A stretch of 64,000 bases of DNA, taken from the IMG/VR virus record IMGVR_UViG_3300044994_000386, positions 1-64,000 of that record, one strand, 5' to 3'. Each line of letters opens with the position of its first letter. The stretch's first letter is position 1. A model generated the notes under the pieces. That model saw only the letters and a program-made list of their open reading frames with translations, made no database searches and was not told where the DNA came from. Made by a program: the position numbers and the translations under genes. Source of the stretch: a virus. Positions 1,246-56,111 of this stretch are shown here, piece after piece.

Positions 1246-1256
1246 TAAGTTATATA

Positions 1257-1901
1257 TTAAATATCCCGCATCATTTCCCTAAATCTAAACTCATCTATGG
1301 TTCCGTCCCTTCTCCAGATTGAATAATCTTCTTGATTTTTAATAATTTCCTTAATCTTAGCCATATTATCTAAAATTAGTTTAGGTAGTGGATTATTACT
1401 ACAGTAGAAGCCACCGCCCAATTTTCTCGGAGCTCCTACTAGTGAAGTTAATTGATTACCATAGCAGTAGAAATTGACACCGACTTCCTCCGGAGCTCCC
1501 CGGAGGGAGGTTAATCGATTATTACTACAGTGAAAATTGGCACCCACTTCTCTCGGAGCTCCCACCAGTGAAGTTAATTTATTATTATGACAATAGAAAT
1601 CACCACCCACTTCTTCCGGAGATCCTTCTAATGAAATTAATTGGTTACAATAACAATAGAAATTACCACCTACTTTTTTAGGAGCTCCTTTTAGTGTGTT
1701 CAATTTGTTATGACTACAATAGAATCCACCACTTACTATACCGAACTCCAACGGTAATTCTAATAATTCCCTATCAGTTAAATTTACATCTCCATCTACA
1801 TCAATAGATCCATCCCCATTTACAGTATATTTTTTTATATCAAATTTCTTGCAAATCCGGTCAATTTGGTTAAATTTGGAGGATTCTAGTAAATATTTCA
1901 T
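1257..1901 (-). CDS. LRR protein, 5 modules
   Basis: 214 aa, same caps and repeat. Confidence 0.9.
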   Translation of the reverse strand: MKYLLESSKFNQIDRICKKFDIKKYTVNGDGSIDVDGDVNLTDRELLELPLEFGIVSGGFYCSHNKLNTLKGAPKKVGGNFYCYCNQLISLEGSPEEVGGDFYCHNNKLTSLVGAPREVGANFHCSNNRLTSLRGAPEEVGVNFYCYGNQLTSLVGAPRKLGGGFYCSNNPLPKLILDNMAKIKEIIKNQEDYSIWRRDGTIDEFRFREMMRDI

Positions 1902-1925
1902 AAAGGTATAATTTTAGAGTATATA

Positions 1926-3011
1926 TTAAATCTCCCGCATCATTTCCCTAAATCTAAATTCGTCTAGGGTTCCATCCCTTCTCCAGATTGAATAATCTTC
2001 TTGATTTTTAATAATTTCCTTAATCTTAGACATATTATCTAAAATTAGTTTAGGAAGGGGATTATTATGACAATAAAAACTGCCACCGATTTCTCTAGGA
2101 GCACCCTTTAATGAAGTTAATTGATTATCATTACAATAGAAGTCATAAGTGACTTCTATTGGAGCTCCCACCAATGAAGTTAGTTGATTATTATCACAGT
2201 AAAAACTACCACCGATTTCTCTCGGAGCTCCCTCTAGTGAAGTTAATTGATTATTATCACAGTGGAAACTTTCACCGACTTCCATCGGAGCTCCTTCTAA
2301 TGAATTTAATTCATTATTACTACATTCGAAAACACCATTTACTTCTCTCAGAGCTCCCATCAGTGAAGTTAATTTATTAAAATTGCAGTAGAAACTGGCA
2401 CCTACTTGTTTTGGTGCCCCTTTTAGCGTGATCAATTGATTATTTTGACAGTAGAAACTGACACCGACTTGCATCGGACCTCCCTCTAATGAAGTTAATT
2501 GATTATTACTACATACGAAATCACCACCGACTTGCATCGGACCTCCCTCTAATGAAGTTAATCGATTATCACTACAGTAGAAATGACCATTAACTTCTCT
2601 CGGAGCTCCCATCAGTGAAGTTAATTGATTATTACTACATACGAAAACACCACCGACTTCCCCCGGACCTCCTTCTAATGAAGTTAATCGATTATTACGG
2701 CAGTAGAAATTGGCACCTACTTGCCTTGGGGCTCCTTTTAGCGTGTTCAATTGATTATTTTGACAGTAGAAACTGATACCGACTTCCCTCGGAGCTCCCT
2801 CTAACGAAGTTAATTGATTATTACCACAGTAAAAATCACCACTTACTATACCAAACCTAAGGGGTAATTTTGATAATCCCCTATTATTTAAATACACATC
2901 ACCATCTACATTTATAGACCCATCAGTATTTAGAGTATAGTCCGTTATACCATATTGCTGACAAATCTGATCAATTTCGTTAAATTTAGAGGATTCTAGT
3001 AGGTATTTCAT
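1926..3011 (-). CDS. LRR protein, 12 modules
   Basis: 361 aa, same caps and repeat. Confidence 0.9.
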   Translation of the reverse strand: MKYLLESSKFNEIDQICQQYGITDYTLNTDGSINVDGDVYLNNRGLSKLPLRFGIVSGDFYCGNNQLTSLEGAPREVGISFYCQNNQLNTLKGAPRQVGANFYCRNNRLTSLEGGPGEVGGVFVCSNNQLTSLMGAPREVNGHFYCSDNRLTSLEGGPMQVGGDFVCSNNQLTSLEGGPMQVGVSFYCQNNQLITLKGAPKQVGASFYCNFNKLTSLMGALREVNGVFECSNNELNSLEGAPMEVGESFHCDNNQLTSLEGAPREIGGSFYCDNNQLTSLVGAPIEVTYDFYCNDNQLTSLKGAPREIGGSFYCHNNPLPKLILDNMSKIKEIIKNQEDYSIWRRDGTLDEFRFREMMREI

Positions 3012-3035
3012 TTAAATATAATTTTAGAGTATATA

Positions 3036-3554
3036 TTAAATCTCCCGCATCATTTCCCAAAATCTAAATTCATCTAAGGTTCCATCCCTTCTCCAGATTG
3101 AATAATCTTCTTGATTTTTAATAATTTCCTCAATTATACCTAAATTATCTAAAATTAGTTGCGGTAGTGGATTATTACTACAATAGAAGCCACCACCCAA
3201 TTTTCTCGGAGCTCCTACCAGTGAAGTTAATTGATTACCATAGCAGTAGAAATTGACACCGACTTCCTCCGGAGCTCCCCGGAGGGAGGTTAATCGATTA
3301 TTACTACAGTAGAAATTGGCACCCACTTCTCTCGGAGCTCCCCGGAGGGAAGTTAATTGATTATTATGACAATAAAAATCAACAATTACTATACCGAACT
3401 TAAGGGGCAATTTTGATAGTCCTCTGTTGGTTAAATCCACATCACCATCTACATCGATAGATCCATCCCCATTTAGAGTATAGTTTTCTATACCATATTG
3501 CTGGCAAATCTGATGAATTTCGTTAAATTTAGAGGATTCTAGTAAATATTTCAT
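3036..3554 (-). CDS. LRR protein, 3 modules
   Basis: 172 aa, same caps and repeat. Confidence 0.9.
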   Translation of the reverse strand: MKYLLESSKFNEIHQICQQYGIENYTLNGDGSIDVDGDVDLTNRGLSKLPLKFGIVIVDFYCHNNQLTSLRGAPREVGANFYCSNNRLTSLRGAPEEVGVNFYCYGNQLTSLVGAPRKLGGGFYCSNNPLPQLILDNLGIIEEIIKNQEDYSIWRRDGTLDEFRFWEMMREI

Positions 3555-3579
3555 TTACATATTAAATTTAGAGTATATA

Positions 3580-4054
3580 TTAAATATCCTGCATCATTTC
3601 CCTAAATCTAAATTCATCTAAGGTTCCATCCATTCTCCAGATTGAATAATCTTCTTGATGATTTCCTGAATTATACCTAAATTATCTAAAATTAGTTGCG
3701 GCAGTGGATTATTAATACAGTAGAAGCCACCGCCCAATTTTCTTGGAGCTCCTAACAGTGAAGTTAATTGATTGTAATATCAGTAGAAATTGACACCGAC
3801 TTCCTCCGGAGCTCCCTCTAGTGAAGTTAGTTGATTATCTTGGCAATAGAAATTACCACTTACCATACCAAACTTAAGGGACAATTTCGATAATCCCCTA
3901 TTATATAAATCTACATCACCACTCACATCTATAGATCCGTCAGGATTTAGAGTATACTTTTTTATACCAGTTTTCCAGTTCAATCTCAGTTTCTATTTCC
4001 GGCAAATCTGATCGATTTTTTTTTAAATATCGAGTATTCTAGTATGTATTTCAT
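3580..4054 (-). pseudogene. Degraded LRR paralog
   Basis: Starts MKYILEYSIF; A9 run (A7 in the 97..1245 copy) shifts frame; short foreign insert near 3968-4000; TGA at 3780-3782; deletion in C-cap. Confidence 0.85.
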
Positions 4055-4065
4055 TAGTGTATATA

Positions 4066-5088
4066 TTAAAATTCCGACATCATTTCCCGGAATCTAAATT
4101 CGTCTATGGTTCCATCCCTTCTCCAGATTGAATAATCTTCTTGATTCTTGATGATATATTTAATCACATATAGATTATCTAAAATTAATTTAGGTAGTGG
4201 ATTATTATAGCAGTAGAAATTACCACCCACTTCTGTTGGGGCACCACACAATGAGGTTAATTTATTATAAGTGCAAAAGAAATCACCACCGACTTCTCTA
4301 GGAGCTCCCTCTAATGAAGTTAATTTATTACGATTACAGTAGAAATCACCACCCACTTCTCTCGGAGCTCCCTGGAGTGAAGTTAATTTATTATTACTAC
4401 ATTCAAAGGTGGCACCTACTTTTTCAGGAGCTCCCTCCAGCGAAATTAATTGATTATCATTACAGAGGAAATCAGCACCCACTTCTCTCGGAGCTCCGTC
4501 CAGTGAAGTTAATTGATTATAATAACAGTAGAAATCACCACCCACTTCTCTCGGAGCTCCCTGGAGTGAAGTTAATTTATTATAACTACAGTAGAAATCA
4601 CCGGGGACTTCTCTCGGAGCACCCTCCAATGAAGTTAGTTGATTATTATCACAGTAAAAACTACCACCGACTTCTCTCGGAGCTCCCCGGAGGGAAGTTA
4701 ATTGATTATAAATACAGGAGAAATTATCACCCACTTCCCGAGGAGCTCCCTCCAGTGAAATTAATTGATTATTATAACAGTAGAAATTGGCACCGACTTC
4801 CCTCGGAGCTCCCCGGAGGGAAGTTAATTGGTTATTACCACAGTAGAAATTGGCACCCACTTCCATCGGACTTCCCTCCAGTGAAGTTAATTGATTATTA
4901 TAGCAATAAAAGCTGCCACTTACTATACCAAATCTAACCGGTAATTCTGATAGACTTTTGTAGGCTAAATCTACATCACCATCCACATCGATGGATCCAT
5001 CCCCATTTAGAGTATAGTTTTTTATACCATATTGCTGGCAAATCTGATCAATTTCGTTAAATTTAGAGGATTCTAGTAGGTATTTCAT
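4066..5088 (-). CDS. LRR protein, 11 modules
   Basis: 340 aa, same caps and repeat. Confidence 0.9.
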   Translation of the reverse strand: MKYLLESSKFNEIDQICQQYGIKNYTLNGDGSIDVDGDVDLAYKSLSELPVRFGIVSGSFYCYNNQLTSLEGSPMEVGANFYCGNNQLTSLRGAPREVGANFYCYNNQLISLEGAPREVGDNFSCIYNQLTSLRGAPREVGGSFYCDNNQLTSLEGAPREVPGDFYCSYNKLTSLQGAPREVGGDFYCYYNQLTSLDGAPREVGADFLCNDNQLISLEGAPEKVGATFECSNNKLTSLQGAPREVGGDFYCNRNKLTSLEGAPREVGGDFFCTYNKLTSLCGAPTEVGGNFYCYNNPLPKLILDNLYVIKYIIKNQEDYSIWRRDGTIDEFRFREMMSEF

Positions 5089-5112
5089 TTAAGTATAATT
5101 TTAGAGTATATA

Positions 5113-5883
5113 TTAAATTTCCCGCATCATTTCCCTAAATCTAAACTTATCTAGTGTTCCATCCCTTCTCCAGATTGAATAATCTTCTTGATTTTTGATA
5201 ATTTCCTCAATTATACCTAAATTATATAAAATTAGTTGCGGCAGTGGATTATTACTACAGTAGAAGCCACCACCCAATTTTCTCGGAGCTCCCCTCAATG
5301 AAGTTAATTGATTACCATAGCAGTAGAAATTGGCACCGACTTTCTCCGGAGCTCCCCGGAGGGAGGTTAATCGATTATTACTACAGTAGAAATTGGCACC
5401 CACTTCTCTCGGAGCTCCATCTAATGAAGTTAGTTGATTATTATAGCAATAGAAACTACCACCAACTTCCTTCGGAGCTCCCTCTAATGAAGTTAGCCGA
5501 TTATATTCACAATAGAAGCTACCACCGACTTCTACCGGAGCTCCATCTAATGAAGTTAGTTGATTATTATAACAGTAGAAATCACCGGGTACTTCTCTCG
5601 GAGCCCCTTTTAATGAAGTTAATTGGTTATTATAACAGTGGAAATTGGCACCGACTTCACTCGGAGCTCCCCGGAGGGAAATTAATCGATTATTATGACA
5701 ATAAAAATCACCACTTACTATACCGAACTTAAGGGGTAATTCTGATAATCCCCTATTGATTAAATCCACATCACCATCCACATCAATAGATCCATCTCCA
5801 TTTAGAGTATAGTTTTCTATGTCATATTGCTGACAAATCCGATCAATTTGGTTAAATTTGGAGGATTCTAGTAAATATTTCAT
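5113..5883 (-). CDS. LRR protein, 7 modules
   Basis: 256 aa, same caps and repeat. Confidence 0.9.
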   Translation of the reverse strand: MKYLLESSKFNQIDRICQQYDIENYTLNGDGSIDVDGDVDLINRGLSELPLKFGIVSGDFYCHNNRLISLRGAPSEVGANFHCYNNQLTSLKGAPREVPGDFYCYNNQLTSLDGAPVEVGGSFYCEYNRLTSLEGAPKEVGGSFYCYNNQLTSLDGAPREVGANFYCSNNRLTSLRGAPEKVGANFYCYGNQLTSLRGAPRKLGGGFYCSNNPLPQLILYNLGIIEEIIKNQEDYSIWRRDGTLDKFRFREMMREI

Positions 5884-5908
5884 TTACATATTAAATTTAG
5901 AGTATATA

Positions 5909-6805
5909 TTAAATCTCCCGCATCATTTCCCAAAATCTAAACTCATCTAAGGTTCCATCCCTTCTCCAGATTGAATAATCTTCTTGATACTTGATGATAT
6001 GTTTAATAATATCTAGATTATCTAAAATTAGTTGGGGGAGTGGATTATTAAAACAGTAGAAATCACCACCGATTTCTCTCGGAGCTCCCTCCAGTGAAGT
6101 TAATTGATTATTACTACATACGAAAACACCACCGACTTGCATCGGACCTCCCTCTAATGAAGTTAATTGATTACTACTGCAGTGGAAATTAGCACCTACT
6201 TCTCTTGGGGCTCCTTCCAGTGAAGTTAATTGATTACCATAGCAGTAGAAATTGGCACCGACTTTCTCCGGAGCTCCCCGGAGGGAAGTTAATTGATTAT
6301 TATGGCAGTAGAAATTGGCACCGACTTCTCTCGGACCCCCTTCTAATGAAGTTAAATAATTATTATAGCAATAGAAACTACCACCAACTTCCTTCGGAGC
6401 TACCTCTAATGAAGTTAGCCGATTATATTCACAATAGAAGCTACCACTGACTTCTACCGGAGCTCCCTCTAATGAAGTTAGTTGATTATTATAACAATAG
6501 AAACTACCACCAACTTCCTTCGGAGCCCCTTTTAATGAAGTTAGTTTATTATTGTTGCAGTAGAAATCACCGCGGACTTCTCTCTGAGCTCCCCGGAGGG
6601 AAGTTAATCGATTATTATGACAATAAAAGCTGCCACTTACTATACCAAACTTAAGGGGTAATTCTGATAATCCCATATTGATTAAATCCACATCACCATC
6701 TACATCAATAGACCCATCTCCATTTAGAGTATATTTTTCTATACCATATTGCTGGCAAATCTGATCAATTTGATTAAATTTAGAGGATTCTAGTAGGTAT
6801 TTCAT
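5909..6805 (-). CDS. LRR protein, 9 modules
   Basis: 298 aa, same caps and repeat. Confidence 0.9.
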   Translation of the reverse strand: MKYLLESSKFNQIDQICQQYGIEKYTLNGDGSIDVDGDVDLINMGLSELPLKFGIVSGSFYCHNNRLTSLRGAQREVRGDFYCNNNKLTSLKGAPKEVGGSFYCYNNQLTSLEGAPVEVSGSFYCEYNRLTSLEVAPKEVGGSFYCYNNYLTSLEGGPREVGANFYCHNNQLTSLRGAPEKVGANFYCYGNQLTSLEGAPREVGANFHCSSNQLTSLEGGPMQVGGVFVCSNNQLTSLEGAPREIGGDFYCFNNPLPQLILDNLDIIKHIIKYQEDYSIWRRDGTLDEFRFWEMMREI

Positions 6806-6829
6806 TTAAGTATAATTTTAGACTATATA

Positions 6830-7915
6830 TTAAATATCCCTCATCAATTCACTAAATCTAAATTCATCTAAGGTTCCGTCCCTTCTCCAAATTGAATAAT
6901 CTTCTTGATACTTGATAATTTCCTTAATCTTAGACATATTATCTAAAATTAATCGGGGGAGTGGATTATTAAAACAGTAGAAATCACCACCGATTTCTCT
7001 CGGAGCTCCCTCCAGTGAAGTTAATTGATTATTACTACATACGAAAACACCACCGACTTGCATTGGACCTCCCTCTAATGAAGTTAATTGATTATTATAA
7101 CAGTAGAAATTGGCACCGACTTCTATCGGAGACCCTTCTAATGAAGTTAATTTATTATCATTACAGTATAAATCACTACCGATTTCCCTCGGGGCTCCCC
7201 TCAATGAAGTTAATTGATTATTACCACAGTAAAAATTACCACCCACTTTTTTCGGAGCTCCATCTAATGAAGTTAATTGATTATTATAGCAATAGAAACT
7301 ACCACCAACTTCCTTCGGAGCTCCCTCTAATAAAGTTAGCTGATTATATTCACAATAGAAGCTACCACCGACTTCTACCGGAGCTCCATCTAATGAAGTT
7401 AGTTGATTATTATAACAGTAGAAATCACCGGGCACTTCTCTCGGGGCCCCTTTTAATGAAGTTAATTGGTTATTATAACAGTGGAAATTGGCACCGACTT
7501 CACTCGGAGCTCCCTCCAATGAAGTTAGCTGATTATATTCACAATAGAAGCTACCACCGACTTCTACCGGAGCTCCATCTAATGAAGTTAGTTGATTATT
7601 ATAACAATATAAACCACCACCAACTTCCTTCGGAGCCCCTTTTAATGAGCTTAATTGGTTATTATAACAGTGGAAATTGGCACCGACTTCACTCGGAGCT
7701 CCCCGGAGGGAAGTTAATCGATTATTATGACAATAAAAGTTGCCACTTACTATACCAAATCTAAGGGGTAATTCTGATAGACTTTTGTAGGCTAAATCTA
7801 CATCACCATCCACATCGATAGATCCATCCCCATTTAAAGTATAGTCCCTTATACCATATTGCTGGCAAATCTGATCAATTTCCTTAAATTTGGAAGATTC
7901 TAGTAAGTATTTCAT
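6830..7915 (-). CDS. LRR protein, 12 modules (start corrected to MKYLLESS)
   Basis: 361 aa from ATG at 7915; the 12-aa extension in the ORF track overlaps the upstream cassette. Confidence 0.9.
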   Translation of the reverse strand: MKYLLESSKFKEIDQICQQYGIRDYTLNGDGSIDVDGDVDLAYKSLSELPLRFGIVSGNFYCHNNRLTSLRGAPSEVGANFHCYNNQLSSLKGAPKEVGGGLYCYNNQLTSLDGAPVEVGGSFYCEYNQLTSLEGAPSEVGANFHCYNNQLTSLKGAPREVPGDFYCYNNQLTSLDGAPVEVGGSFYCEYNQLTLLEGAPKEVGGSFYCYNNQLTSLDGAPKKVGGNFYCGNNQLTSLRGAPREIGSDLYCNDNKLTSLEGSPIEVGANFYCYNNQLTSLEGGPMQVGGVFVCSNNQLTSLEGAPREIGGDFYCFNNPLPRLILDNMSKIKEIIKYQEDYSIWRRDGTLDEFRFSELMRDI

Positions 7916-7926
7916 TAGTGTATATA

Positions 7927-8040
7927 TTAAATATCCCGCATCATTTCCCAAAATCTAAACTCATCTAGGGTTCCATCCCTTCTCCAGATTGAATAATCTT
8001 CAATTTGGTTAAATTTGGAGGATTTTATTAGATGTTTCAT
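7927..8040 (-). CDS. Cap-only mini-paralog (37 aa) with no LRR modules
   Basis: Manual translation MKHLIKSSKFNQI-EDYSIWRRDGTLDEFRFWEMMRDI*, an in-frame fusion of N-cap start and C-cap end. Confidence 0.7.
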   Translation of the reverse strand: MKHLIKSSKFNQIEDYSIWRRDGTLDEFRFWEMMRDI

Positions 8041-8069
8041 TAGGATATATATTAAATTTAGAGTATATA

Positions 8070-8714
8070 TTAAATATCCCGCATCAATTCACTAAATCTA
8101 AATTCATCTAGTGTTCCATCTTTTCTCCAGATTGAATAGTCTTTTTGATACTTGATAATATGTTTAATCATATCCATATTATCTAAAATTAATCGGGGGA
8201 GTGGATTAATATAGCAACGGAAATCACCACCGACTTCTCGCGGAGCTCCACGTAATGAAGTTAATTGATTATCAATACAGTTGAAATCACCACCTACTTT
8301 TCGCGGAGCTCCCTCCAATGATGTTAATTGATTATAATAACAGTAGAAACTAGTACCTACTTCCCTTGGAGCTCCTGATAATGAAATCAATTGATTATTA
8401 TTGCAGTAGAAACCGGCACCCACTTCCCTTGGAGCTCCTTCTAGATTAGTCAATTGATTACCATAGCAGTAGAAATTACCACCTACTTCTATAGGAGCTC
8501 CCTTCAGTGTAGTTAATTGATTACGATGACAGTAGAAATTAGCACTTACTATACCAAACTTAAGTGGTAATTCTGATAGACCTTGATAAGACAAATCCAC
8601 ATCACCATCTACATCAATAGATCCATCCCCATTTACAGTATATTTTTTTATATCAAATTTCTTGCAAATCTGATCAATTTGGTTAAATTTAGAGGATTCT
8701 AGTAGGTATTTCAT
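8070..8714 (-). CDS. LRR protein, 5 modules
   Basis: 214 aa, same caps and repeat. Confidence 0.9.
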   Translation of the reverse strand: MKYLLESSKFNQIDQICKKFDIKKYTVNGDGSIDVDGDVDLSYQGLSELPLKFGIVSANFYCHRNQLTTLKGAPIEVGGNFYCYGNQLTNLEGAPREVGAGFYCNNNQLISLSGAPREVGTSFYCYYNQLTSLEGAPRKVGGDFNCIDNQLTSLRGAPREVGGDFRCYINPLPRLILDNMDMIKHIIKYQKDYSIWRKDGTLDEFRFSELMRDI

Positions 8715-8739
8715 TTACATATTAAATTTAGAGTATATA

Positions 8740-9699
8740 TTAAATATCCTGCATCATTTCCCTAAATCTAAACTCATCTAGGGTTCCATCACTTCTCCAG
8801 ATTGAATAATCTTCTTGATTCTTAATGATGTGTTTAATCATAGTCAAATTATCAAAAATTAGTTCAGGAAGTGGATTACCATAGCAGTAGAAGTCACCAC
8901 CAACTTCTCTCGGAGCACCCTTTAATGAAGTTAATTGATTATCATTACAATAGAAGTCATAAGTGACTTCTATTGGAGCTCCCTCTAATGAAGTTAGTTG
9001 ATTATTATTACAGTAAAAACTACCACCGATTTCTCTCGGAGCACCCTCCAATGAAGTTAGCTGATTATTATCACAGTAAAAACTAACACCGATTTCTTTC
9101 GGAGCTCCCCGCAATGAAGTTAGTTGATTATTACTGCAGTGGAAATTGTCACCCACTTCTCTCGGAGCTCCCTCTAGTGAAGTTAATTGATTACTACTAC
9201 AGTGGAAATTACCACCTACTTCTCTTGGGTCTCCTTCCAGTGAAGTTAATTGATTATCATAACAGTAGAAATCGGTACCGACTTCTCTTGGTGATCCCTT
9301 TAATGAAAATAATTGATTACTAATACAAGAGAAACCACCACCCACTTCTTTTGGAGCTCCCTGCAGTGAAGTTAATTTGTTATTACTACAGTAGAAATCA
9401 CCACCCACTTCTTCCGGAGATCCTTCTAATGAAATTAATTGGTTACAATAACAATAGAAATTACCACCTACTTTTTTAGGAGCTCCTTTTAGTGTGGTCA
9501 ATTTGTTATGACTACAATAGAATCCACCACTTACTATACAGAACTCCAACGGTAATTCTAATAATTCCCTATCAGTTAAATTTACATCACCATCTACATC
9601 AATAGATCCATCCACATTTAGAGTATATTTTTCTATACCATATTGCTGGCAAATCTGATGAATTTTGTTAAATTTAGAGGATTCTAGTAAATATTTCAT
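8740..9699 (-). CDS. LRR protein, 10 modules
   Basis: 319 aa, same caps and repeat. Confidence 0.9.
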   Translation of the reverse strand: MKYLLESSKFNKIHQICQQYGIEKYTLNVDGSIDVDGDVNLTDRELLELPLEFCIVSGGFYCSHNKLTTLKGAPKKVGGNFYCYCNQLISLEGSPEEVGGDFYCSNNKLTSLQGAPKEVGGGFSCISNQLFSLKGSPREVGTDFYCYDNQLTSLEGDPREVGGNFHCSSNQLTSLEGAPREVGDNFHCSNNQLTSLRGAPKEIGVSFYCDNNQLTSLEGAPREIGGSFYCNNNQLTSLEGAPIEVTYDFYCNDNQLTSLKGAPREVGGDFYCYGNPLPELIFDNLTMIKHIIKNQEDYSIWRSDGTLDEFRFREMMQDI

Positions 9700-9724
9700 T
9701 TACATATTAAATTTAGAGTATATA

Positions 9725-10684
9725 TTAAATATCCCGCATCATTTCCCTAAATCTAAACTCATCTAGGGTTCCGTCGCTTCTCCAGATTGAATAATCTTCT
9801 TGATTTTTAATGATGTGTTTAATCATAGTCAAATTATCAAAAATTAGTTGAGGAAGTGGATTATCATAGCAGTAGAAGTTACCACCAACTTCTCTCGGAG
9901 CTCCCTCTAGTGAAGTTAATTTATTATCATAACAGTAGAAATTACCACCCACTTCTCTCGGAGCACCCCTCAATGAAGTTAATTGGTTATTATAGCAGTA
10001 GAAGCCACCACTGACTTCCTCCGGAGCCCCTCTCAATGAAGTTAATTTATTATTATGACAGTAGAAATGACCACCCACTTCTATCGGACCTCCCTCCAGT
10101 GAAGTTAATTGATTATAACCACAGTGGAAACTACTACCGACTACCTCTGGAGCTCCCCTCAATGAAGTTAATCGATTATAACAACAATAGAAAACACCAC
10201 CTACTTCTCTAGGAGCTCCCTCCAGTGTAGTTAATTGATTATTATTACAGTAGAAATTACCACCTACTTGTCTTGGAGCTCCCCTTAATGATGTTAATTG
10301 ATTATCATCACAGTAGAAACTACCACCAACTTCTTTCGGAGCCCCCTCCAGCGAAGTTAATTGATTATTACTACAAAAAAAGCCATCACCGACTTCCTCC
10401 GGAGCTCCTTCCAGTGAAATCAATTGATTGCTACCACAGTTGAAATCACCACCGACTTTTCTCGGTGAACATTCTAGTGAAGTTAATTGGTTACCATAGC
10501 AGCGGAAATCACCACTTACTATACCGAACTTAAGGGGTAATTCTGATAATCCCTTATTGGTTAAATTTACATCACCATCTACATCGATAGATCCATCCCC
10601 ATTTACAGTATAGTTTTTTATACCAAATTCCTTACAAATCTGGTCAATTTGGTTAAATATGGAGGATTCTAGTAGGTATTTCAT
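9725..10684 (-). CDS. LRR protein, 10 modules
   Basis: 319 aa, same caps and repeat. Confidence 0.9.
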   Translation of the reverse strand: MKYLLESSIFNQIDQICKEFGIKNYTVNGDGSIDVDGDVNLTNKGLSELPLKFGIVSGDFRCYGNQLTSLECSPRKVGGDFNCGSNQLISLEGAPEEVGDGFFCSNNQLTSLEGAPKEVGGSFYCDDNQLTSLRGAPRQVGGNFYCNNNQLTTLEGAPREVGGVFYCCYNRLTSLRGAPEVVGSSFHCGYNQLTSLEGGPIEVGGHFYCHNNKLTSLRGAPEEVSGGFYCYNNQLTSLRGAPREVGGNFYCYDNKLTSLEGAPREVGGNFYCYDNPLPQLIFDNLTMIKHIIKNQEDYSIWRSDGTLDEFRFREMMRDI

Positions 10685-39341: not shown

Positions 39342-40448
39342 TTAAGCTTCGGTTTCTATTTCGACTTCACTATAAACAGTTTTGATCATTCTTTCAGATA
39401 CTAAATAAGGATCACAATTTGATGCTGGTCTTCTATCTTCAAAATAACCTCTACCTTCAACTAATGCTTGAGCTGGTATTCTAATCGAAGTATCACGTGT
39501 ACTATAACCAAAACTAAACTCATGTATACCAGATGTCTCATGAGCCCCAGTCAATCTCTTTTCATTGTGTAGACCATATACTTCAATATGGGCCATGTGA
39601 TTTTTTTCTAATTTACGCATTGTTTGTTTAATTATTTCAAATCCACCTTCTTGTCTCATTTCTTTACTTGAAAAATTAACGTGACAACCGGTTCCATTCC
39701 AATCCCCCTCTATTGGCTTTGGATGTAATGAAACATTAACGTTGTGTTTTTCAGCTACCCTTTGTAGAATATATCTTGCGACCCAAAGTTGATCAGAACC
39801 ATTTAGTGCGGTTACTGGACCAATTTGAAATTCCCATTGACCAAGCAAAACCTCGGCATTAATACCCGAAATATCTAAACCAATTTGTATACACATGTTC
39901 ATGTGCTCTTCAGCGATTTCTCTACCAACAACTGTATCCGCGCCAATGCCACAATAATAATCACCTTGTGGTCGAGGTTGACCAGATTTTCCTGACTTAA
40001 ATCCTAAAGGTAGACCAATTCCTTCACCAAAAGGCATTTCTGGCTTATGTGTTAAAGTATATTCCTGTTCCCAGCCAAACCAGGGTAGATCTGATTTATT
40101 ATTATAACCATTTGTATTCTCTTTTAATCCAAGTTTTTCTATAATTTCTTGTAATTTTCTACGGTGATTGGTTTTATGTGGATTGCCTTCTGGATCTAAT
40201 ACTTCACATAACACTAATTTATCCATTTTTCCTCTAAAAGGATCATTTGTTATAAAAACTGGTTTTAATAGACAGTCTGTGTTTTTATTTTTTCCAGATT
40301 TGGCTTGTTTGGTTGAACTACCATCAAACGACCAAATTGGATAATCTTCAGGATTTGTGGAATCAATCGATTCGGAAATTTTAGTTTTACTTCTTAATTG
40401 TTGTGGATTTGATCCATCTAACCAAATGTATTCTAGTTTAACTTTCAT
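39342..40448 (-). CDS. glnII: Glutamine synthetase type II
   Basis: LEYIWLDG, LRSKT, WSFDGSST, QGDYYCG, NAEV..QWEFQ, DWNGTGCH, RLTGAHET, EDRRPASNCDPY. Confidence 0.93.
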   Translation of the reverse strand: MKVKLEYIWLDGSNPQQLRSKTKISESIDSTNPEDYPIWSFDGSSTKQAKSGKNKNTDCLLKPVFITNDPFRGKMDKLVLCEVLDPEGNPHKTNHRRKLQEIIEKLGLKENTNGYNNKSDLPWFGWEQEYTLTHKPEMPFGEGIGLPLGFKSGKSGQPRPQGDYYCGIGADTVVGREIAEEHMNMCIQIGLDISGINAEVLLGQWEFQIGPVTALNGSDQLWVARYILQRVAEKHNVNVSLHPKPIEGDWNGTGCHVNFSSKEMRQEGGFEIIKQTMRKLEKNHMAHIEVYGLHNEKRLTGAHETSGIHEFSFGYSTRDTSIRIPAQALVEGRGYFEDRRPASNCDPYLVSERMIKTVYSEVEIETEA

Positions 40449-52208: not shown

Positions 52209-53960
52209 ATGTTAATCATAAAATATAATGATTTCTTAGATATAAGATTAAATGAGAATGTTCAAGCAGCAAAGGCTTACTTGAGAGATTTAGCTTTGGC
52301 CAAAAAGAAAAATATAGATAAAAATGCAGAGCTAACTCCTGAAGAAGTACGTAGAGTAGAAAACAATCCAGATTTCTTAAAAATAAAAGAAATGCTGAAA
52401 GATAACCCAGGATACACCTATGCTTTCACAAGGTTTTTCTTTGATGAGGGAATTGATATTAATGAGTTGCAAAGAGTCTATAACAAGCTTAAAGAATTAA
52501 GACAATCTCTTAATTTATTATCAATGCCCATTGATAAGTTTGCTGATGTAAAACCATCGAATGAAGATCCACGTAAAGGTTTTGAAAGATTACTTGATGA
52601 TATTGCTAAAATTGAGATTTCTCGTACTGTTAAGAAATGGGTAAATCAATTACCAAGTGATTTAAAACGCGAATACCAAAATGCTTCAGTTGTTCAAAAA
52701 GAAAAAATTAAAGGTATTGCAATAGCATTTGATGAATTTGGTAAAGAACTAGACGGTACTAAAAATTGGGAAAAAAATAAAGAATTACAGGATTTATTTT
52801 TCTTAAAAGTTAAAAGATATAAAAATATATCCGACTTAATTATAGCTGCAAATAATTATATTAAGGCCGCAAATAATGCTCAAATTTCTAAATTCTTACA
52901 AGCTATTCAAAAAGTTAATGTTAAATATGGCCAGATGAATGGTGTTGAAATCATTTTTGATGAGAATAGAATTTTGATTATTGAGGTTAAATCTTTTTTT
53001 GCTAACAGAGAATTAAACTCTAATACAGCACATTGTATTGCTTCTTCTCATAGTCAGTGGGATAATTACGTCGGTGCTGATAATATATATAACAAGCAAT
53101 ATTATATTTACAATTTTAATTTACCACCATCTGATAACTATTCAGTTATTGGTATTACAATTGGACCTGGAAATAAAATCACTGCATGTCATGCTAAAGA
53201 TGATAGAAATATATCCGGTTCAATTAAAACTATCCTAAAACAATGGCAGAATAATTATAATATAAATGTTAATATATTAGAATTATTAGCTGCAATGACA
53301 CCAGACGAAATTGAAGCCAAAAAGAAAAGAATTGCTGCAAATAAAGAAATTGTTAAACCTGGTCTTTCTATTGATAAAATTAAACATTATCTTGAAGAAG
53401 GTGCTGATCCAAATGCTCAACAAGGTAAGCCTTTAAATAATGCGGTTAAAGAAGATGATTATGATAAGGCTAAACTTTTATTGGAAAAAGGTGCCTCACC
53501 AAATATTGGTAATTCAATTAAATATGCCAAAAACCTTGATATGATTAAGTTACTAGTTGACTATGGTTCTGAAATCAATAATGATGTTTTCCTCAATATT
53601 ATCAATGATTATGACGCAGTTGAGTATGTATTAAAAGCAGGAATTGATCCAAACTTTGAAAAAGGTCTTCCATTAAGAAATGCTGCTAAATTAGGTAGAA
53701 CTGATATTATGAAGCTTCTTATCAAATATGGTGCTAGAATTTCTGAAAGAAGATATATGGTTGTTAAATGGGCACTTGAATGGGCACAGATTGATGCGAT
53801 TAAACTATTATTTCAAGAACTTGAAAAATCAGGTAATAGTGTTGATAAAGAATTCTTAGAAAAATCACAATTCAAACATTGGGTACAAACTTCTGATAAA
53901 GTATCTGAAGATAAAATTAAAAAAGTTCTAGACTTCTTAGATCAATATGGAACTAATTAA
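52209..53960 (+). CDS. Ankyrin-repeat protein
   Basis: LEEGADPN..PLNNAV..LLEKGASPN, PLRNAAKLGRTDIMKLLIKYGA. Confidence 0.8.
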   Translation: MLIIKYNDFLDIRLNENVQAAKAYLRDLALAKKKNIDKNAELTPEEVRRVENNPDFLKIKEMLKDNPGYTYAFTRFFFDEGIDINELQRVYNKLKELRQSLNLLSMPIDKFADVKPSNEDPRKGFERLLDDIAKIEISRTVKKWVNQLPSDLKREYQNASVVQKEKIKGIAIAFDEFGKELDGTKNWEKNKELQDLFFLKVKRYKNISDLIIAANNYIKAANNAQISKFLQAIQKVNVKYGQMNGVEIIFDENRILIIEVKSFFANRELNSNTAHCIASSHSQWDNYVGADNIYNKQYYIYNFNLPPSDNYSVIGITIGPGNKITACHAKDDRNISGSIKTILKQWQNNYNINVNILELLAAMTPDEIEAKKKRIAANKEIVKPGLSIDKIKHYLEEGADPNAQQGKPLNNAVKEDDYDKAKLLLEKGASPNIGNSIKYAKNLDMIKLLVDYGSEINNDVFLNIINDYDAVEYVLKAGIDPNFEKGLPLRNAAKLGRTDIMKLLIKYGARISERRYMVVKWALEWAQIDAIKLLFQELEKSGNSVDKEFLEKSQFKHWVQTSDKVSEDKIKKVLDFLDQYGTN

Positions 53961-53963
53961 AAT

Positions 53964-53994
53964 AAAAAACCCACTAAAATTAGTGGGTTTTTTT
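53964..53994. terminator. Bidirectional intrinsic terminator
   Basis: aaaaaacccactaa-aa-ttagtgggttttttt. Confidence 0.85.
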
Positions 53995-55441
53995 ATAACT
54001 CAATTGAGTTGATTCGGTTGTATAAGGCTCGTTTGTCTTCCTCCATCATTTTCATGATGTCAAAGACTCTATCAGAGAAACCAGCTAAAGCAAATACTTT
54101 AGGCTCTGGGAATTGAAGAGTTCCATATCCTTGTAAGTCCCAAGAGTAAACATAAGGATTACAGTTGAACTTCTTCTTGTAGTCGGCAAACTGAGCAGTG
54201 GGTGTATTGTAGCCAATCCAGCCCTGCATATCTGATAAGATAATTACTCTATCATAAGATTTATTAGCCTTAATGAATATATCTTTGAAGTTAGTTCCAC
54301 CACCTGAAAAATTGAACTTACTACGGATAGTAAAAATAGAATCCATTGGATTATATTCAATGTAGCTAGCATAATTCGCAAAAGTCATAACATCACAGCT
54401 ATTAGCTTTAGCAATCATAGCACCAAATAGAGATGCAATTTCAGAAGGACGACCACTCATAGAACCAGATACGTCAATGACAACCAAAGTTTCGCCATTA
54501 AATCTTGGAACATTTACTACCGAAAAATCTAAAGCTTTATTGATGGCAACCAATACTTTACGAACTTCAGATGAAGAGCCAAGTTTTGAGACTTCTTCAT
54601 AAGCAGTCGAAAAACGGAAAGGTAGAACTTTAGATTTTCGAATCATTGATTCGTCAATTAAAAGAGTACAAGCTGCATCTACCACTGATGGTGCCTGAGA
54701 AATAATATTTCTCAAGTTTTTCAAAAGAGCAAAGTAACCAATCTTACGAGTTTGAATTAACTCAGACCATGCATCGGCTTTAAGTTGACTTAATTCTTCT
54801 TCGTTAGAAGCATTTTGACCAGCCTGAGAAAGCATAGCCTCCCAAGTATCAGTGTTTTTTAATTTACCGCTGATCAAGGCTTTCAAAGCTTCGGAATTTT
54901 TCTCGGTAGGAACCGGATGAACCAAGTTTACCACGTCAACTAATTTGAATTTTTTAGATTCACCTTTGTACTTAGCCAATTGATAAGTATCAAACTTATC
55001 GAAAGCTTTAGCAAATCCTTTTTTTAAAGAATTTGGAAATTTAGGTTTATTCTTATCGGTTTTGTAGTTAACATAGTAAGACATAATTTCAGTCATATCA
55101 TCAACACGACTAACAACCTTATTATAAAAATTTTTAGACCATTCTTGACCAGAGATATATAATGCTAATTCAGCGGCAAGTACATGAGTAATACTTCTCA
55201 TTCCGAATTCATCACGAGCAAAAATAGCAGCTTTAGCCGCAAATTTAGGATCAACTTTAGATAAGAGAGCCTTTAAATCGTCAATTGATTGGTCAGCCGA
55301 TCGGTAAAACTGGTTGTTAACAAATGATGTCAACAACAAAGAAACAAGAGACAGTTCATCAGTTTTGCGATAGGCTTCACCACCAGCAAGATTAATTGTT
55401 TTTGTTTTTGGTTTTGATTCTGTTTTGTTAAACTTTGACAT
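53993..55441 (-). CDS. Ro60/Rsr TROVE-vWA RNA-binding protein (start corrected to MSKFN)
   Basis: NLAGGEAY, FDTYQLAKY, LVHP, TWE, ALLKNLRN, LPFRF, vWA MIDAS DVSGSM, GGTNF, ILSDMQ. Confidence 0.92.
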   Translation of the reverse strand: MSKFNKTESKPKTKTINLAGGEAYRKTDELSLVSLLLTSFVNNQFYRSADQSIDDLKALLSKVDPKFAAKAAIFARDEFGMRSITHVLAAELALYISGQEWSKNFYNKVVSRVDDMTEIMSYYVNYKTDKNKPKFPNSLKKGFAKAFDKFDTYQLAKYKGESKKFKLVDVVNLVHPVPTEKNSEALKALISGKLKNTDTWEAMLSQAGQNASNEEELSQLKADAWSELIQTRKIGYFALLKNLRNIISQAPSVVDAACTLLIDESMIRKSKVLPFRFSTAYEEVSKLGSSSEVRKVLVAINKALDFSVVNVPRFNGETLVVIDVSGSMSGRPSEIASLFGAMIAKANSCDVMTFANYASYIEYNPMDSIFTIRSKFNFSGGGTNFKDIFIKANKSYDRVIILSDMQGWIGYNTPTAQFADYKKKFNCNPYVYSWDLQGYGTLQFPEPKVFALAGFSDRVFDIMKMMEEDKRALYNRINSIEL

Positions 55442-55535
55442 ACTATATAAATTTATTTTGTTTTCTATAGACAAGGACTCGTAGAAATCATTATTGGCTT
55501 TTGAATCATGCGAGTGTATAAAACTCAATCTATAC

Positions 55536-55576
55536 AAAAAAAAAATCAGAGTTACTTAAACTAAATAACTCTGATT
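55536..55576 (-). terminator. Intrinsic terminator between the Y-RNA-like elements and Ro60
   Basis: Minus strand AATCAGAGTTA-11 nt-TAACTCTGATT followed by a T run. Confidence 0.7.
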
Positions 55577-55596
55577 ACAAATATATATATAAAATT

Positions 55597-55889
55597 AGAC
55601 AAATAGGAAAAGCTAGTTGAGCTTTTTTTTATATTTAACTTTATCTAAATAAAAGTTAAAAAATAGTTGATTGATTTTTAGGTCTATCATCAAAACCCCA
55701 ATCTTTGGTTCATTTTGGTCAGAACTGCTATTCGTAGCAAACGTCTATTTTTTTTTAATCTTCCTCTCCAAAGTATTAAGTTTTTTTTTGGATATAGAAG
55801 CATCTAAAACCATAGATAGTTTTTAGAACTTTCATGATAGTTTTGAATTTTTCTTATCGAAGTAACTCATCCTATCACCATATTTGTCT
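55597..55889 (-). ncRNA. Long Y-RNA-like element (about 293 nt)
   Basis: Ends pair (AGACAAATA/TATTTGTCT); 5' GTGATAGGATGAGTTACTTCG and 3' GCTCAACTAGCTTTTCC form an inner stem; next to Ro60. Confidence 0.65.
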
Positions 55890-55905
55890 AATAATTTTAA
55901 CATGT

Positions 55906-55973
55906 AATCAGAGTAAGTTTTAGAAAAGTATTTTTCTATGCACGCGAAGTAACTTTTCTAATCACTACTGATT
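55906..55973 (-). ncRNA. Short Y-RNA-like element (about 68 nt)
   Basis: AATCAG/CTGATT closing stem, TTAGAAAAGT/ACTTTTCTAA inner stem, same GTGAT..AGTTACTTCG motif. Confidence 0.65.
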
Positions 55974-56111
55974 TTATTGTTATACATAAGGTTTTTAAAA
56001 AGTTTACAAAAATAATAATTTTTTTTAATAATTTGTACATATATATATGAACATATAAAATTTAATTTTTTTTAAAGTGGATTTTTTATAGTCCATTTTC
56101 TATATACTTTA

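What the first reader, a model, noticed from the sequence alone, without database searches (positions are those of the whole stretch)
55536..55973. Candidate Ro60-sensing attenuator built from a Y-RNA-like stem
Seen on the minus transcript: the 3' arm of the short element, ACUCUGAUUACA (55914-55903), is perfectly complementary over 12 nt to UGUAAUCAGAGU (55579-55568). That second segment overlaps the 5' arm of the intrinsic terminator just before the Ro60 gene. The two pairings are mutually exclusive, and the long Y-like RNA folds as a closed domain between them, bringing them together. Inference: without Ro60 the antiterminator forms and ro60 is transcribed; Ro60 binding locks the short stem, frees the terminator and yields Y RNA only. 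This would be a protein-responsive negative-feedback switch that I do not recognise as described.
Basis: partly seen in the sequence, partly recalled or inferred. Interest (0 to 1): 0.82.

Follow-up and report, generated by a model that had tools for sequence, protein, structure and literature searches.

The report
Y-RNA hairpin wired to Ro60 terminator
In front of a huge phage's Ro60 gene, a small Y-RNA hairpin can swap pairing partners with the transcription stop signal; about 60 related phages keep this arrangement, so it probably lets the phage balance Ro60 protein against its partner RNAs, though no experiment has tested this.

Summary
On the minus strand, 55914-55903 is perfectly complementary over 12 nt to 55579-55568. 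That second segment covers the lowest 9 nt of the 5' arm of a canonical intrinsic terminator (55576-55544 plus eight T), 102 nt before the Ro60/TROVE start codon (55441).

The window is a fragment of a huge uncultured phage. The locus reads: promoter-like motif, short "handle-only" Y RNA (Y1), long closed Y RNA (Y2), terminator, ro60.

I fetched 160 related loci. The pairing between the Y1 3' arm and the terminator 5' arm is kept while its sequence changes:
- Own partners pair better than permuted ones: -11.5 against -6.9 kcal/mol, with 0 of 20000 permutations reaching the observed value.
- 7 of 12 pairs show changes on both sides.
- More distant clades use unrelated sequences for the same pairing.

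Folding gives the energy order of a classic attenuator. Before the terminator 3' arm exists, the long-range pairing is in the minimum-energy fold in 60 of 67 variants. Afterwards the terminator wins.

So a conserved anti-antiterminator / antiterminator / terminator layout is well supported. That Ro60 is the signal, and that feedback is negative, remains inference. The mechanism type is known (B. subtilis rplJL and infC leaders). Using a Y RNA as sensor is not described in the papers I could search. Earlier notes of this scan reported the same idea on other phage DNA.

The parts
55979..56005 (-). Promoter-like motif: AAACTTTTT, about 12 nt, then TATAAC, just upstream of Y1.
   Evidence: The same motif (AAACTTTTT, 10-12 nt, TATAAAA) lies about 20-25 nt before Y1 in most related loci. 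The exact motif occurs once in the window. The sigma-70-type scan also calls a site at 55999-55971. No activity was tested.
55898..55982 (-). Y1: a short, handle-only Y-RNA-type hairpin, proposed as the anti-antiterminator. The core stem is 55973-55906.
   Evidence: Present in the fold. In the family alignment 10 of 15 pairs show compensatory changes, and GUAG, G.UACUUCG and CUC.G are invariant. The covariance model R1 scores it at 70.8 bits and also finds untrained copies in distant Ro60 loci, one of which overlaps an Rfam YrlA match.
55962..55973 (-). Segment a: the 5' basal strand of Y1 (AAUCAG, bulged U, AGUGA).
   Evidence: It pairs with 55916-55906 in the fold. These basal pairs covary in the family.
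55903..55914 (-). Segment b: the 3' basal strand of Y1 plus 3 nt beyond it. It can pair with either a or c.
   Evidence: I3. The last three bases (ACA) are unpaired in the Y1 fold and could serve as a toehold.
55594..55892 (-). Y2: a long Y-like RNA with the same handle motif (55878-55858) and a closed multi-hairpin domain. No tRNA-like arms were found.
   Evidence: Perfect 12-bp closing stem (I20) and the shared 21-nt motif (D2). Fold. ARAGORN finds no tRNA-like gene. No Rfam match. R1 gives only a weak match at 55887-55813.
55568..55579 (-). Segment c: 3 nt upstream of the terminator plus the basal 9 nt of its 5' arm. It can pair with either b (antiterminator) or d (terminator).
   Evidence: It pairs with b over 12 of 12 positions in the fold of the nascent transcript.
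55536..55576 (-). Intrinsic terminator: a 15-bp hairpin (55576-55544) followed by eight U (55543-55536).
   Evidence: Called by the scan. In the family the lower stem is 94.8% paired, with changes on both sides at 8 of 9 pairs.
55442..55535 (-). Leader between terminator and start codon. It is about 70 nt longer here than in relatives and holds a 14-codon open frame out of frame with ro60.
   Evidence: Sequence. Terminator-to-ATG distances in relatives. No sigma-70-like promoter is called here.
53993..55441 (-). Ro60 (TROVE plus vWA) gene, 482 aa.
   Evidence: Pfam TROVE 1.1e-19 and vWA_Ro60 5e-4. It is 70% identical to the protein of a 634-kb uncultured phage record. The start aligns with MSKFN in the homologues.

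Best explanation
The locus is one transcription unit that makes the two halves of a Ro60 ribonucleoprotein. A four-segment attenuator sets their ratio. Transcription starts just upstream of Y1 and produces Y1 and Y2. The Y1 basal stem (a:b) acts as an anti-antiterminator. Its 3' strand b can instead pair with c, the base of the terminator's 5' arm, and this helix continues outward from the Y2 closing stem. If b:c is in place when the polymerase reaches the U tract, the lower terminator stem cannot form and transcription runs on into ro60. If Y1 stays closed, the terminator forms and only Y RNAs are released. The proposed signal is Ro60 itself: Ro60 bound to the conserved Y1 handle locks a:b, favours termination and so limits its own synthesis. 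Shown here: the elements, their mutual exclusivity, their conservation with compensatory change, and the energy order. Inferred: that the switch acts during transcription, that Ro60 binds Y1, and the direction of the effect.
For: Anatomy and the 12-bp complement.

The layout of Y1, Y2, terminator and ro60 recurs in 160 fetched loci. Most have the terminator 26-40 nt before the ATG.

Among 79 loci, the best partner of the terminator 5'-arm window in about 580 nt upstream falls on the Y1 3' arm or spacer in 70. Shuffled windows land there 7.8% of the time, and the mean energy is -15.9 against -10.9 kcal/mol.

b and c co-evolve:
- 67 variants: own partners -14.4 against permuted -10.6 kcal/mol, 0 of 5000 permutations.
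- 21 representatives with clearly different c cores: -11.5 against -6.9, 0 of 20000; the own partner ranks first or second in 14.
- Fixed-register count: 7 of 12 pairs changed on both sides, 74.9% of cells paired against at most 41.5% when slid, 0 of 500 shuffles. This includes b positions that are not paired inside Y1.
- Variant duplexes are listed.
- Distant clades keep the principle with unrelated sequences: L069 10 bp, L044 7+6 bp, L038 10 bp, L042 10 bp.

Energies: in the nascent transcript, b:c is in the minimum-energy fold in 60 of 67 variants (median gain -6.5 kcal/mol). Once the 3' arm exists, the terminator state is favoured by a median -11.9.

Y1 is a true member of the Y-RNA handle family.

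Precedent for the mechanism: PMC4538822 and PMC1865079.
Against: There are no RNA data and no binding or termination data. Y1 is transcribed about 300 nt before c, so a:b forms first and c must displace it. By analogy with the trp leader without a ribosome, the default could simply be termination whatever the Ro60 level. In most relatives the perfect core of b:c is only 7-8 bp, not significant per locus, and much weaker than the 12-20-bp terminator. The loop between c and d is 3-10 nt, so the time window is short. [quoted passage not shown] If phage Ro60 does the same to Y1, binding could free b and reverse the sign. In this window 102 nt separate terminator and ATG, and an unrecognised promoter type there cannot be excluded.
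Confidence: 0.4

Rival explanations
1. The long-range helix is structural or a processing stem. Either b:c plus the two AU-rich spacers extend the Y2 terminal stem as a site for RNase III-type excision of Y2, or they shape a single RNA of about 430 nt with two handles through a four-way junction. On this reading the terminator is just a terminator.
For: In many relatives the spacer between Y1 and Y2 also pairs with the spacer between Y2 and the terminator. This gives a long interrupted helix continuous with the Y2 stem. In the window, the full-length conformer with b:c enforced is a four-way junction (a:d, b:c, upper terminator hairpin) only 2.5 kcal/mol above the minimum. An earlier scan note on another phage (e1-5336084) reads the whole gap as one RNA of about 390 nt; I did not check it.
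Against: Across the family the b:c conformer of the full-length RNA lies a median 6.4 kcal/mol above the minimum. It would therefore be rare once the terminator 3' arm exists. Cleavage within b:c would destroy the conserved Y1 handle. In the window an 11 x 15-nt internal loop separates b:c from the Y2 stem. The helix always takes the base of the terminator arm, which is the position that matters for termination.
Confidence: 0.25
2. It is an attenuator, but it does not sense Ro60. Either b:c is a built-in partial antiterminator that fixes a constant ratio of Y RNA to ro60 mRNA, or it responds to another input such as correct folding of Y2, temperature, polymerase speed or a host factor.
For: All the conservation and energy evidence for the switch applies equally and says nothing about the ligand. 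Closure of Y2 is what brings b and c together.
Against: Segment b lies inside the invariant part of the handle shared by Y1, Y2 and YrlA-type RNAs. That handle is the likeliest docking site for Ro60, so occupancy by Ro60 should affect the choice of partner. A fixed leak could be had from a weaker terminator without three-way covariation.
Confidence: 0.2
3. Positive feedback. Ro60 bound to the Y1 handle pries the basal stem open, frees b for c and promotes read-through, so Ro60 is made once Y RNPs start to form.
For: [quoted passage not shown] The basal Y1 stem is weak and bulged.
Against: It needs an initial leak to start. Autogenous control of RNA-binding proteins is usually negative (PMC4538822, PMC1865079). 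No data bear on phage Ro60.
Confidence: 0.07
4. No function. The complementarity is a by-product of two hairpins that happen to share similar basal stems, or is chance.
For: In most loci the terminator 3' arm and the Y1 3' arm share the same 7-nt core. Any strand complementary to one is then complementary to the other (D4, 35). Per-locus significance of 7-8-nt cores is nil.
Against: The pairing includes bases outside both hairpins: ACA/UGU in the window, and AUU/AAU in the L119 group, where the two 3' arms differ. It persists in clades with unrelated sequences. Permutation, shuffle and slide controls are all exceeded.
Confidence: 0.08

Closest known systems
B. subtilis rplJL leader: autogenous attenuation by L10(L12)4 (Yakhnin et al. 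2015, PMC4538822)
   Same: Three overlapping structures in a leader: anti-antiterminator, antiterminator and intrinsic terminator. The encoded RNA-binding protein stabilises the anti-antiterminator and so promotes termination. This is exactly the logic proposed here.
   Different: There the protein-binding element mimics an rRNA site and has no other role, and the spacing is short. Here the element is itself a member of the protein's partner-RNA family. A whole second Y RNA of about 300 nt sits between segments 2 and 3. The terminated leader would be a functional product. Nothing has been tested here.
B. subtilis infC-rpmI-rplT leader: attenuation by L20 (Choonee et al. 2007, PMC1865079)
   Same: The protein binds a conserved leader domain and provokes premature termination at a leader terminator. 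An antiterminator is needed for expression.
   Different: It relies on molecular mimicry of 23S rRNA, with a ribosomal protein, in a bacterial chromosome.
Bacterial and phage Y RNAs next to rsr: YrlA/YrlB, Yrn1/Yrn2, Rfam RF02553 (Chen et al. 2014, PMC4201824); Thermus phage phiLo Yrl1/Yrl2 upstream of its Ro60 (PMC12135203)
   Same: Two Y-like RNAs encoded just upstream of Ro60 on the same strand. In M. smegmatis the two are processed from one precursor. The end-to-end stem carries a conserved handle, and relatives of this locus carry the tRNA-like T and D arms.
   Different: The window's two RNAs lack the tRNA-like domain and give no RF02553 match. These papers do not mention a terminator; the word does not occur in either text. 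They also describe no cis-regulatory role for a Y RNA.
E. coli trp leader (established textbook knowledge)
   Same: Four segments with 1:2 and 3:4 against 2:3, and 3:4 the most stable helix.
   Different: In trp the ribosome on a leader peptide opens 1:2. Here no conserved leader peptide exists.

Membership tests
Y RNA, YrlA/YrlB type (Rfam RF02553) | Encoded beside a Ro60/rsr gene | tested here: met
   Y1 and Y2 lie 95-540 nt upstream of the TROVE gene on the same strand. The same holds in the related loci.
Y RNA, YrlA/YrlB type (Rfam RF02553) | Terminal stem formed by the 5' and 3' ends, carrying the conserved handle | tested here: met
   10 of 15 Y1 pairs have compensatory changes, and GUAG, G.UACUUCG and CUC.G are invariant. 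Model R1 built from Y1 hits untrained relatives, including L045 821-957, which coincides with an RF02553 match at 828-953. The RF02553 consensus aligns over the same UACUUC region in L005.
Y RNA, YrlA/YrlB type (Rfam RF02553) | tRNA-like domain (T and D arms), and a score above the Rfam gathering threshold | tested here: not met
   No RF02553 match in the window even at E up to 10. ARAGORN finds nothing. Relatives reach only 33-42 bits against a threshold of 69. The window's RNAs are handle-bearing Y-like RNAs, not YrlA proper.
Y RNA, YrlA/YrlB type (Rfam RF02553) | Binds Ro60 | not testable with these tools
   Needs a gel shift or co-purification.
Intrinsic (Rho-independent) terminator | G+C-containing hairpin immediately followed by a U tract | tested here: met
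   15-bp stem, loop of 3, eight T. Conserved in the family with 8 of 9 lower-stem pairs covarying.
Protein-dependent attenuator with anti-antiterminator, antiterminator and terminator (rplJL type) | An antiterminator helix that excludes the terminator and is conserved | tested here: met
   b:c covers the basal 9 nt of the terminator 5' arm. Conservation and covariation. It is in the minimum-energy fold of the nascent RNA in 60 of 67 variants.
Protein-dependent attenuator with anti-antiterminator, antiterminator and terminator (rplJL type) | An anti-antiterminator that excludes the antiterminator | tested here: met
   The Y1 basal stem uses 9 of the 12 b positions and is supported by covariation.
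Protein-dependent attenuator with anti-antiterminator, antiterminator and terminator (rplJL type) | The regulated gene has no promoter of its own after the terminator | tested here: inconclusive
   No sigma-70-like site between 55535 and 55441. Relatives have only 26-40 nt there. Phage-specific promoter types cannot be scanned.
Protein-dependent attenuator with anti-antiterminator, antiterminator and terminator (rplJL type) | The encoded protein binds the anti-antiterminator and changes termination | not testable with these tools
   Needs in vitro transcription with and without Ro60. No RNA sequencing run holds this DNA.
Leader-peptide (trp-type) attenuator | A conserved short ORF whose translation covers segment 1 | tested here: not met
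   The window has a 9-codon frame at 55987-55958 overlapping segment a, but relatives lack it. Its ATG lies at the predicted -10 element.
RNase III processing stalk | About 20 bp or more of near-continuous duplex formed by sequences flanking the excised RNA | tested here: inconclusive
   Window: 12 bp, then an 11 x 15-nt internal loop, then a 12-bp Y2 stem. Some relatives have 7 bp, a small loop and 6-12 AU pairs. No cleavage data.

The most novel reading that the evidence does not exclude
A Y RNA serves both as product and as sensor. One promoter makes the partner RNAs of Ro60, and the free or occupied state of the first Y RNA's handle on the nascent transcript decides whether the polymerase continues into ro60. 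The phage thereby matches protein to RNA in its Ro60 particle. This would be the first cis-regulatory role for a Y RNA and the first described control of Ro60 synthesis by its own RNP partner. It would be conserved across several clades of huge phages.
Probability: 0.35. Interest if true: 0.8.

Novelty: new variant of a known kind. Interest (0 to 1): 0.66.

Why it matters
Ro60 and Y RNAs occur from bacteria to humans, yet how cells or viruses balance the protein against its RNA partners is not described in the papers I could search. If this leader works as proposed, it gives Y RNAs a new job as a cis-acting sensor. It would also show that huge phages regulate an RNA-quality-control particle with the same logic bacteria use for ribosomal proteins. 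It would provide a compact, testable, protein-responsive RNA switch with many natural sequence variants already at hand. Even if Ro60 is not the signal, a long-range helix that covaries with both a Y-RNA stem and a terminator in about 60 phage lineages needs an explanation.

Tried and rejected
- Rfam search of the window: no Y RNA or YrlA match even at E up to 10. ARAGORN: no tRNA-like gene.
- RNA evidence: no RNA holder listed for this DNA. Only DNA runs from hot-spring and microbial-mat metagenomes hold it.
- Longest perfect complement per locus: only 7-8 nt in most relatives and not significant on its own, p about 0.3-0.8. The signal lies in the constant location and the co-variation.
- Reversed c-window as a control: invalid, because the common core AGACCAGA reads the same backwards, and the control landed on the same site in 49 of 79 loci. 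Replaced by shuffled windows and partner permutation.
- Leader-peptide attenuation: a 9-codon frame overlaps segment a in the window but is not conserved.
- A separate ro60 promoter after the terminator: none of sigma-70 type. I looked by eye for other promoter-like boxes around the terminator and found nothing consistent across relatives.
- Looking for loci where the Y1-Y2-terminator cassette is detached from ro60, which would have argued against autoregulation: none found. In L027, L126 and L114 a small ORF is merely inserted between terminator and ro60, and L027 keeps a (mismatched) b:c complement by eye.
- The promoter-like motif AAACTTTTTWRAAA is not a general motif of this phage: 9 matches at one mismatch against 7.6 expected.
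- The review PMC10870794 is not held in the library.

Full report
**What the window is**

The window is the first 64 kb of an 86-kb IMG/VR virus record, judged 15% complete. It has about 29% G+C. It encodes a T4-type large terminase, a 1264-aa protein with a weak sub-threshold match to a phage tail-sheath domain, and a DnaB-type helicase. Its Ro60 protein is 70% identical to that of a 634,780-bp uncultured phage record, LR745206.1. It is therefore a fragment of a huge phage. DNA runs that hold it come from hot-spring and microbial-mat metagenomes.

**The observation**

On the minus strand a class I ribonucleotide reductase gene ends at 56112. A 670-nt non-coding stretch follows, and then a TROVE/Ro60 gene starting at 55441.

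The downstream one overlaps the 5' arm of a canonical intrinsic terminator: 15-bp stem at 55576-55544, then eight T. The upstream one is the 3' strand of a short hairpin at 55973-55906.

Between them lies a 299-nt element closed by a perfect 12-bp stem (I20). The minimum-energy fold of the whole region is short hairpin, closed long domain and terminator, with z = -6.6 against shuffles. A 12-nt complement was not reached in 200 shuffles.

**What the elements are**

The short and long elements share a 21-nt motif (D2).

I fetched 160 related Ro60 loci from viral and metagenome collections. Nearly all close relatives (65-75% protein identity) carry the same order:
1. a promoter-like motif (AAACTTTTT, 10-12 nt, TATAAAA);
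2. a short hairpin, Y1;
3. a long element, Y2;
4. a hairpin with a U tract;
5. the ATG, usually only 26-40 nt further on.

An alignment of 50 Y1 copies shows invariant GUAG, G.UACUUCG and CUC.G. Compensatory changes occur in 10 of 15 stem pairs.

More distant relatives carry the same 5' motif on RNAs that also have tRNA-like T and D arms. These match Rfam YrlA (RF02553) at E of 1e-5 to 1e-7, although below the gathering score. A covariance model built from Y1 alone finds untrained copies in those distant loci. One of them is an RNA that coincides with a YrlA match.

So Y1 and Y2 are Y-RNA-type partner RNAs that share the YrlA handle but lack the tRNA mimic. They are not members of RF02553 by its threshold. 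Two Y-like RNAs upstream of a phage Ro60 gene are already known from Thermus phage phiLo (PMC12135203). In Mycobacterium smegmatis two are processed from a single precursor upstream of rsr (PMC4201824).

**Is the long-range complementarity more than chance?**

In most relatives the perfect core is only 7-8 nt (UCUGGUC with GACCAGA), which is not significant per locus. Four lines of evidence show it is nevertheless selected.

1. *Location.* In 70 of 79 loci the best partner of the terminator 5'-arm window, anywhere in about 580 nt upstream, is the Y1 3' arm or the spacer after it. Shuffled windows land there 7.8% of the time. Mean energy is -15.9 against -10.9 kcal/mol.

2. *Co-variation.*
   - Among 67 distinct variants, own partners pair at -14.4 kcal/mol and permuted partners at -10.6 (0 of 5000 permutations).
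   - Among 21 representatives whose c cores differ at 5 or more of 15 positions, the values are -11.5 and -6.9 (0 of 20000). The own partner ranks first or second of 21 in 14 cases.
   - In a fixed-register alignment, 7 of 12 pairs show changes on both sides. 74.9% of cells are paired, against at most 41.5% when the partner is slid. No shuffle reaches the observed covariation score.
   - Several of the covarying b positions are bulged or unpaired within Y1, so the Y1 stem cannot explain them.

3. *Bases outside both hairpins take part.*
   - In the window these are ACA with UGU.
   - In the L119 group they are AUU with AAU, although there the two 3' arms differ.
   - In L118, by my reading of the sequences, the helix spans 15 positions with one mismatch and one G-U.
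   - In many loci the Y1-Y2 spacer pairs with the Y2-terminator spacer.

4. *Unrelated sequences in distant clades.* Clades with Ro60 at only 45-58% identity keep the principle. These are my readings of the sequences:
   - L069: 10 bp.
   - L044: 7+6 bp.
   - L038: 10 bp with two G-U pairs.
   - L042: 10 bp with one G-U.
   - L005: 7+4 bp.
   - In each case one structured element is enclosed between the two strands.

The terminator itself covaries strongly. The base of its stem therefore changes together with both its own 3' arm and the Y1 3' arm.

**Energetics**

I folded the transcript from Y1 to the end of the terminator 5' arm, that is, before the 3' arm exists. The b:c helix is in the minimum-energy structure in 60 of 67 variants, including all 12 pairs in the window. 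The median gain is 6.5 kcal/mol over leaving c unpaired.

Once the 3' arm and U tract are added, every variant tested switches to closed Y1 plus terminator. This state is favoured by a median 11.9 kcal/mol. The order, with 1:2 weaker than 2:3 and 2:3 weaker than 3:4, is that of classical attenuators.

In the full-length RNA the b:c conformer lies a median 6.4 kcal/mol above the minimum. In the window it lies only 2.5 above, where it forms a four-way junction.

**Most likely mechanism**

The best-supported reading is an attenuator with three parts: the Y1 stem as anti-antiterminator, b:c as antiterminator, and the terminator. It decides how often transcription that has made the Y RNAs continues into ro60.

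Segment b lies in the invariant part of the handle, which is the likeliest Ro60 docking site. The natural signal is therefore Ro60 occupancy of Y1 on the nascent RNA. Bound Ro60 would lock Y1, let the terminator form and limit Ro60 synthesis. It is also exactly the logic shown experimentally for L10(L12)4 on the B. subtilis rplJL leader (PMC4538822), and it resembles L20 on the infC leader (PMC1865079).

I put the full model at about 0.4. The sub-claims rank higher:
- the b:c pairing is functional: about 0.75;
- it modulates read-through: about 0.55.

**Weak points**

- Y1 forms about 300 nt before c is made, so c must displace a strand already paired.
- The window of time before the terminator 3' arm appears is short.
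- The core helix is short in most relatives.
- The sign of any Ro60 effect is unknown. The introduction of PMC12135203 notes that frog Ro60 separates the Y RNA helix, and that could free b instead.
- No RNA run holds this DNA, so there is no expression evidence.

**Rivals**

- A structural or processing helix flanking Y2 (0.25).
- A switch that does not sense Ro60 (0.2).
- Positive feedback (0.07).
- No function (0.08).

**Comparison with the known, and novelty**

The mechanism type is established. The elements (Ro60, Y-like RNAs upstream of it, a terminator) are individually ordinary.

I found no description of a Y RNA acting in cis on the terminator before ro60, nor any autoregulation of Ro60 synthesis. 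I therefore class this as a new variant of a known kind.

Earlier AI notes of this scan reported the same idea on other phage genomes. One was supported (e1-5870457). In another genome the proposed switch failed in folding (e1-6024869). These were leads only; everything above was tested here on this window and its relatives.

Noticed in passing
window 56070-56085 (minus strand), and L003-L036 just after the upstream gene's stop codon: A conserved AAAAAATCCAC motif follows the stop codon of whatever gene lies upstream of the Y-RNA cassette (ribonucleotide reductase here, a coiled-coil protein in L003, L004 and L006). In many relatives it is the 5' half of a hairpin (TCCACCTT ... AGGTGGAT) followed by ATATATAC. 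It may be a terminator or a phage regulatory site.
   Followed up: partly
window 55442-55535 (minus strand): The leader between terminator and ro60 start is about 70 nt longer here than in relatives. It holds a 14-codon ATG-started frame (about 55509-55465) that ends about 25 nt before the ro60 ATG. Relatives L027, L114 and L126 instead have a 50-110-aa ORF inserted at this place.
   Followed up: partly
window 55958-55987 (minus strand): A 9-codon ATG...TAG frame overlaps the 5' strand of Y1. Translation would open Y1 as in the trp leader. It is not conserved (a few relatives have 3-5-codon versions ending at the invariant TAG), and its ATG lies at the predicted -10 box.
   Followed up: yes
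L013, L014, L029, L118, L123, L027 (Y1 3' end): In some lineages the Y1 hairpin is itself followed by a U-rich run (seven U in L027). There Y1 may act as a terminator of its own.
   Followed up: no
window 55594-55892 (minus strand); alignment A4 columns 300-560: The inner domain of Y2 (about 230 nt) has conserved blocks across relatives, for example GGTGAAAAAGTCCG and CAAAGTTTCGGGAGAATTCTTTG, but no T or D arm. It is an undescribed payload where YrlA has its tRNA mimic. The window's own version is among the most divergent.
   Followed up: partly
window 52209-53960 (+) and 53964-53993: A 583-aa ankyrin-repeat protein converges on ro60. The two genes share one hairpin with runs of A and T on either side, read as a terminator on both strands.
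   Followed up: no
window 97-10684 (minus strand): A tandem run of about ten ORFs of 170-380 aa lies in a stretch of higher G+C (33-37% against about 29%). The one tested has leucine-rich repeats.
   Followed up: no
window 39342-40448 (minus strand): A phage-encoded glutamine synthetase-like protein (Gln-synt_C 2e-18, Gln-synt_N 1e-8).
   Followed up: no
L045, L051, L054, L056, L080: In more distant phages the Ro60 gene sits beside arrays of true tRNA genes (up to eight in L054) as well as YrlA-like RNAs.
   Followed up: no
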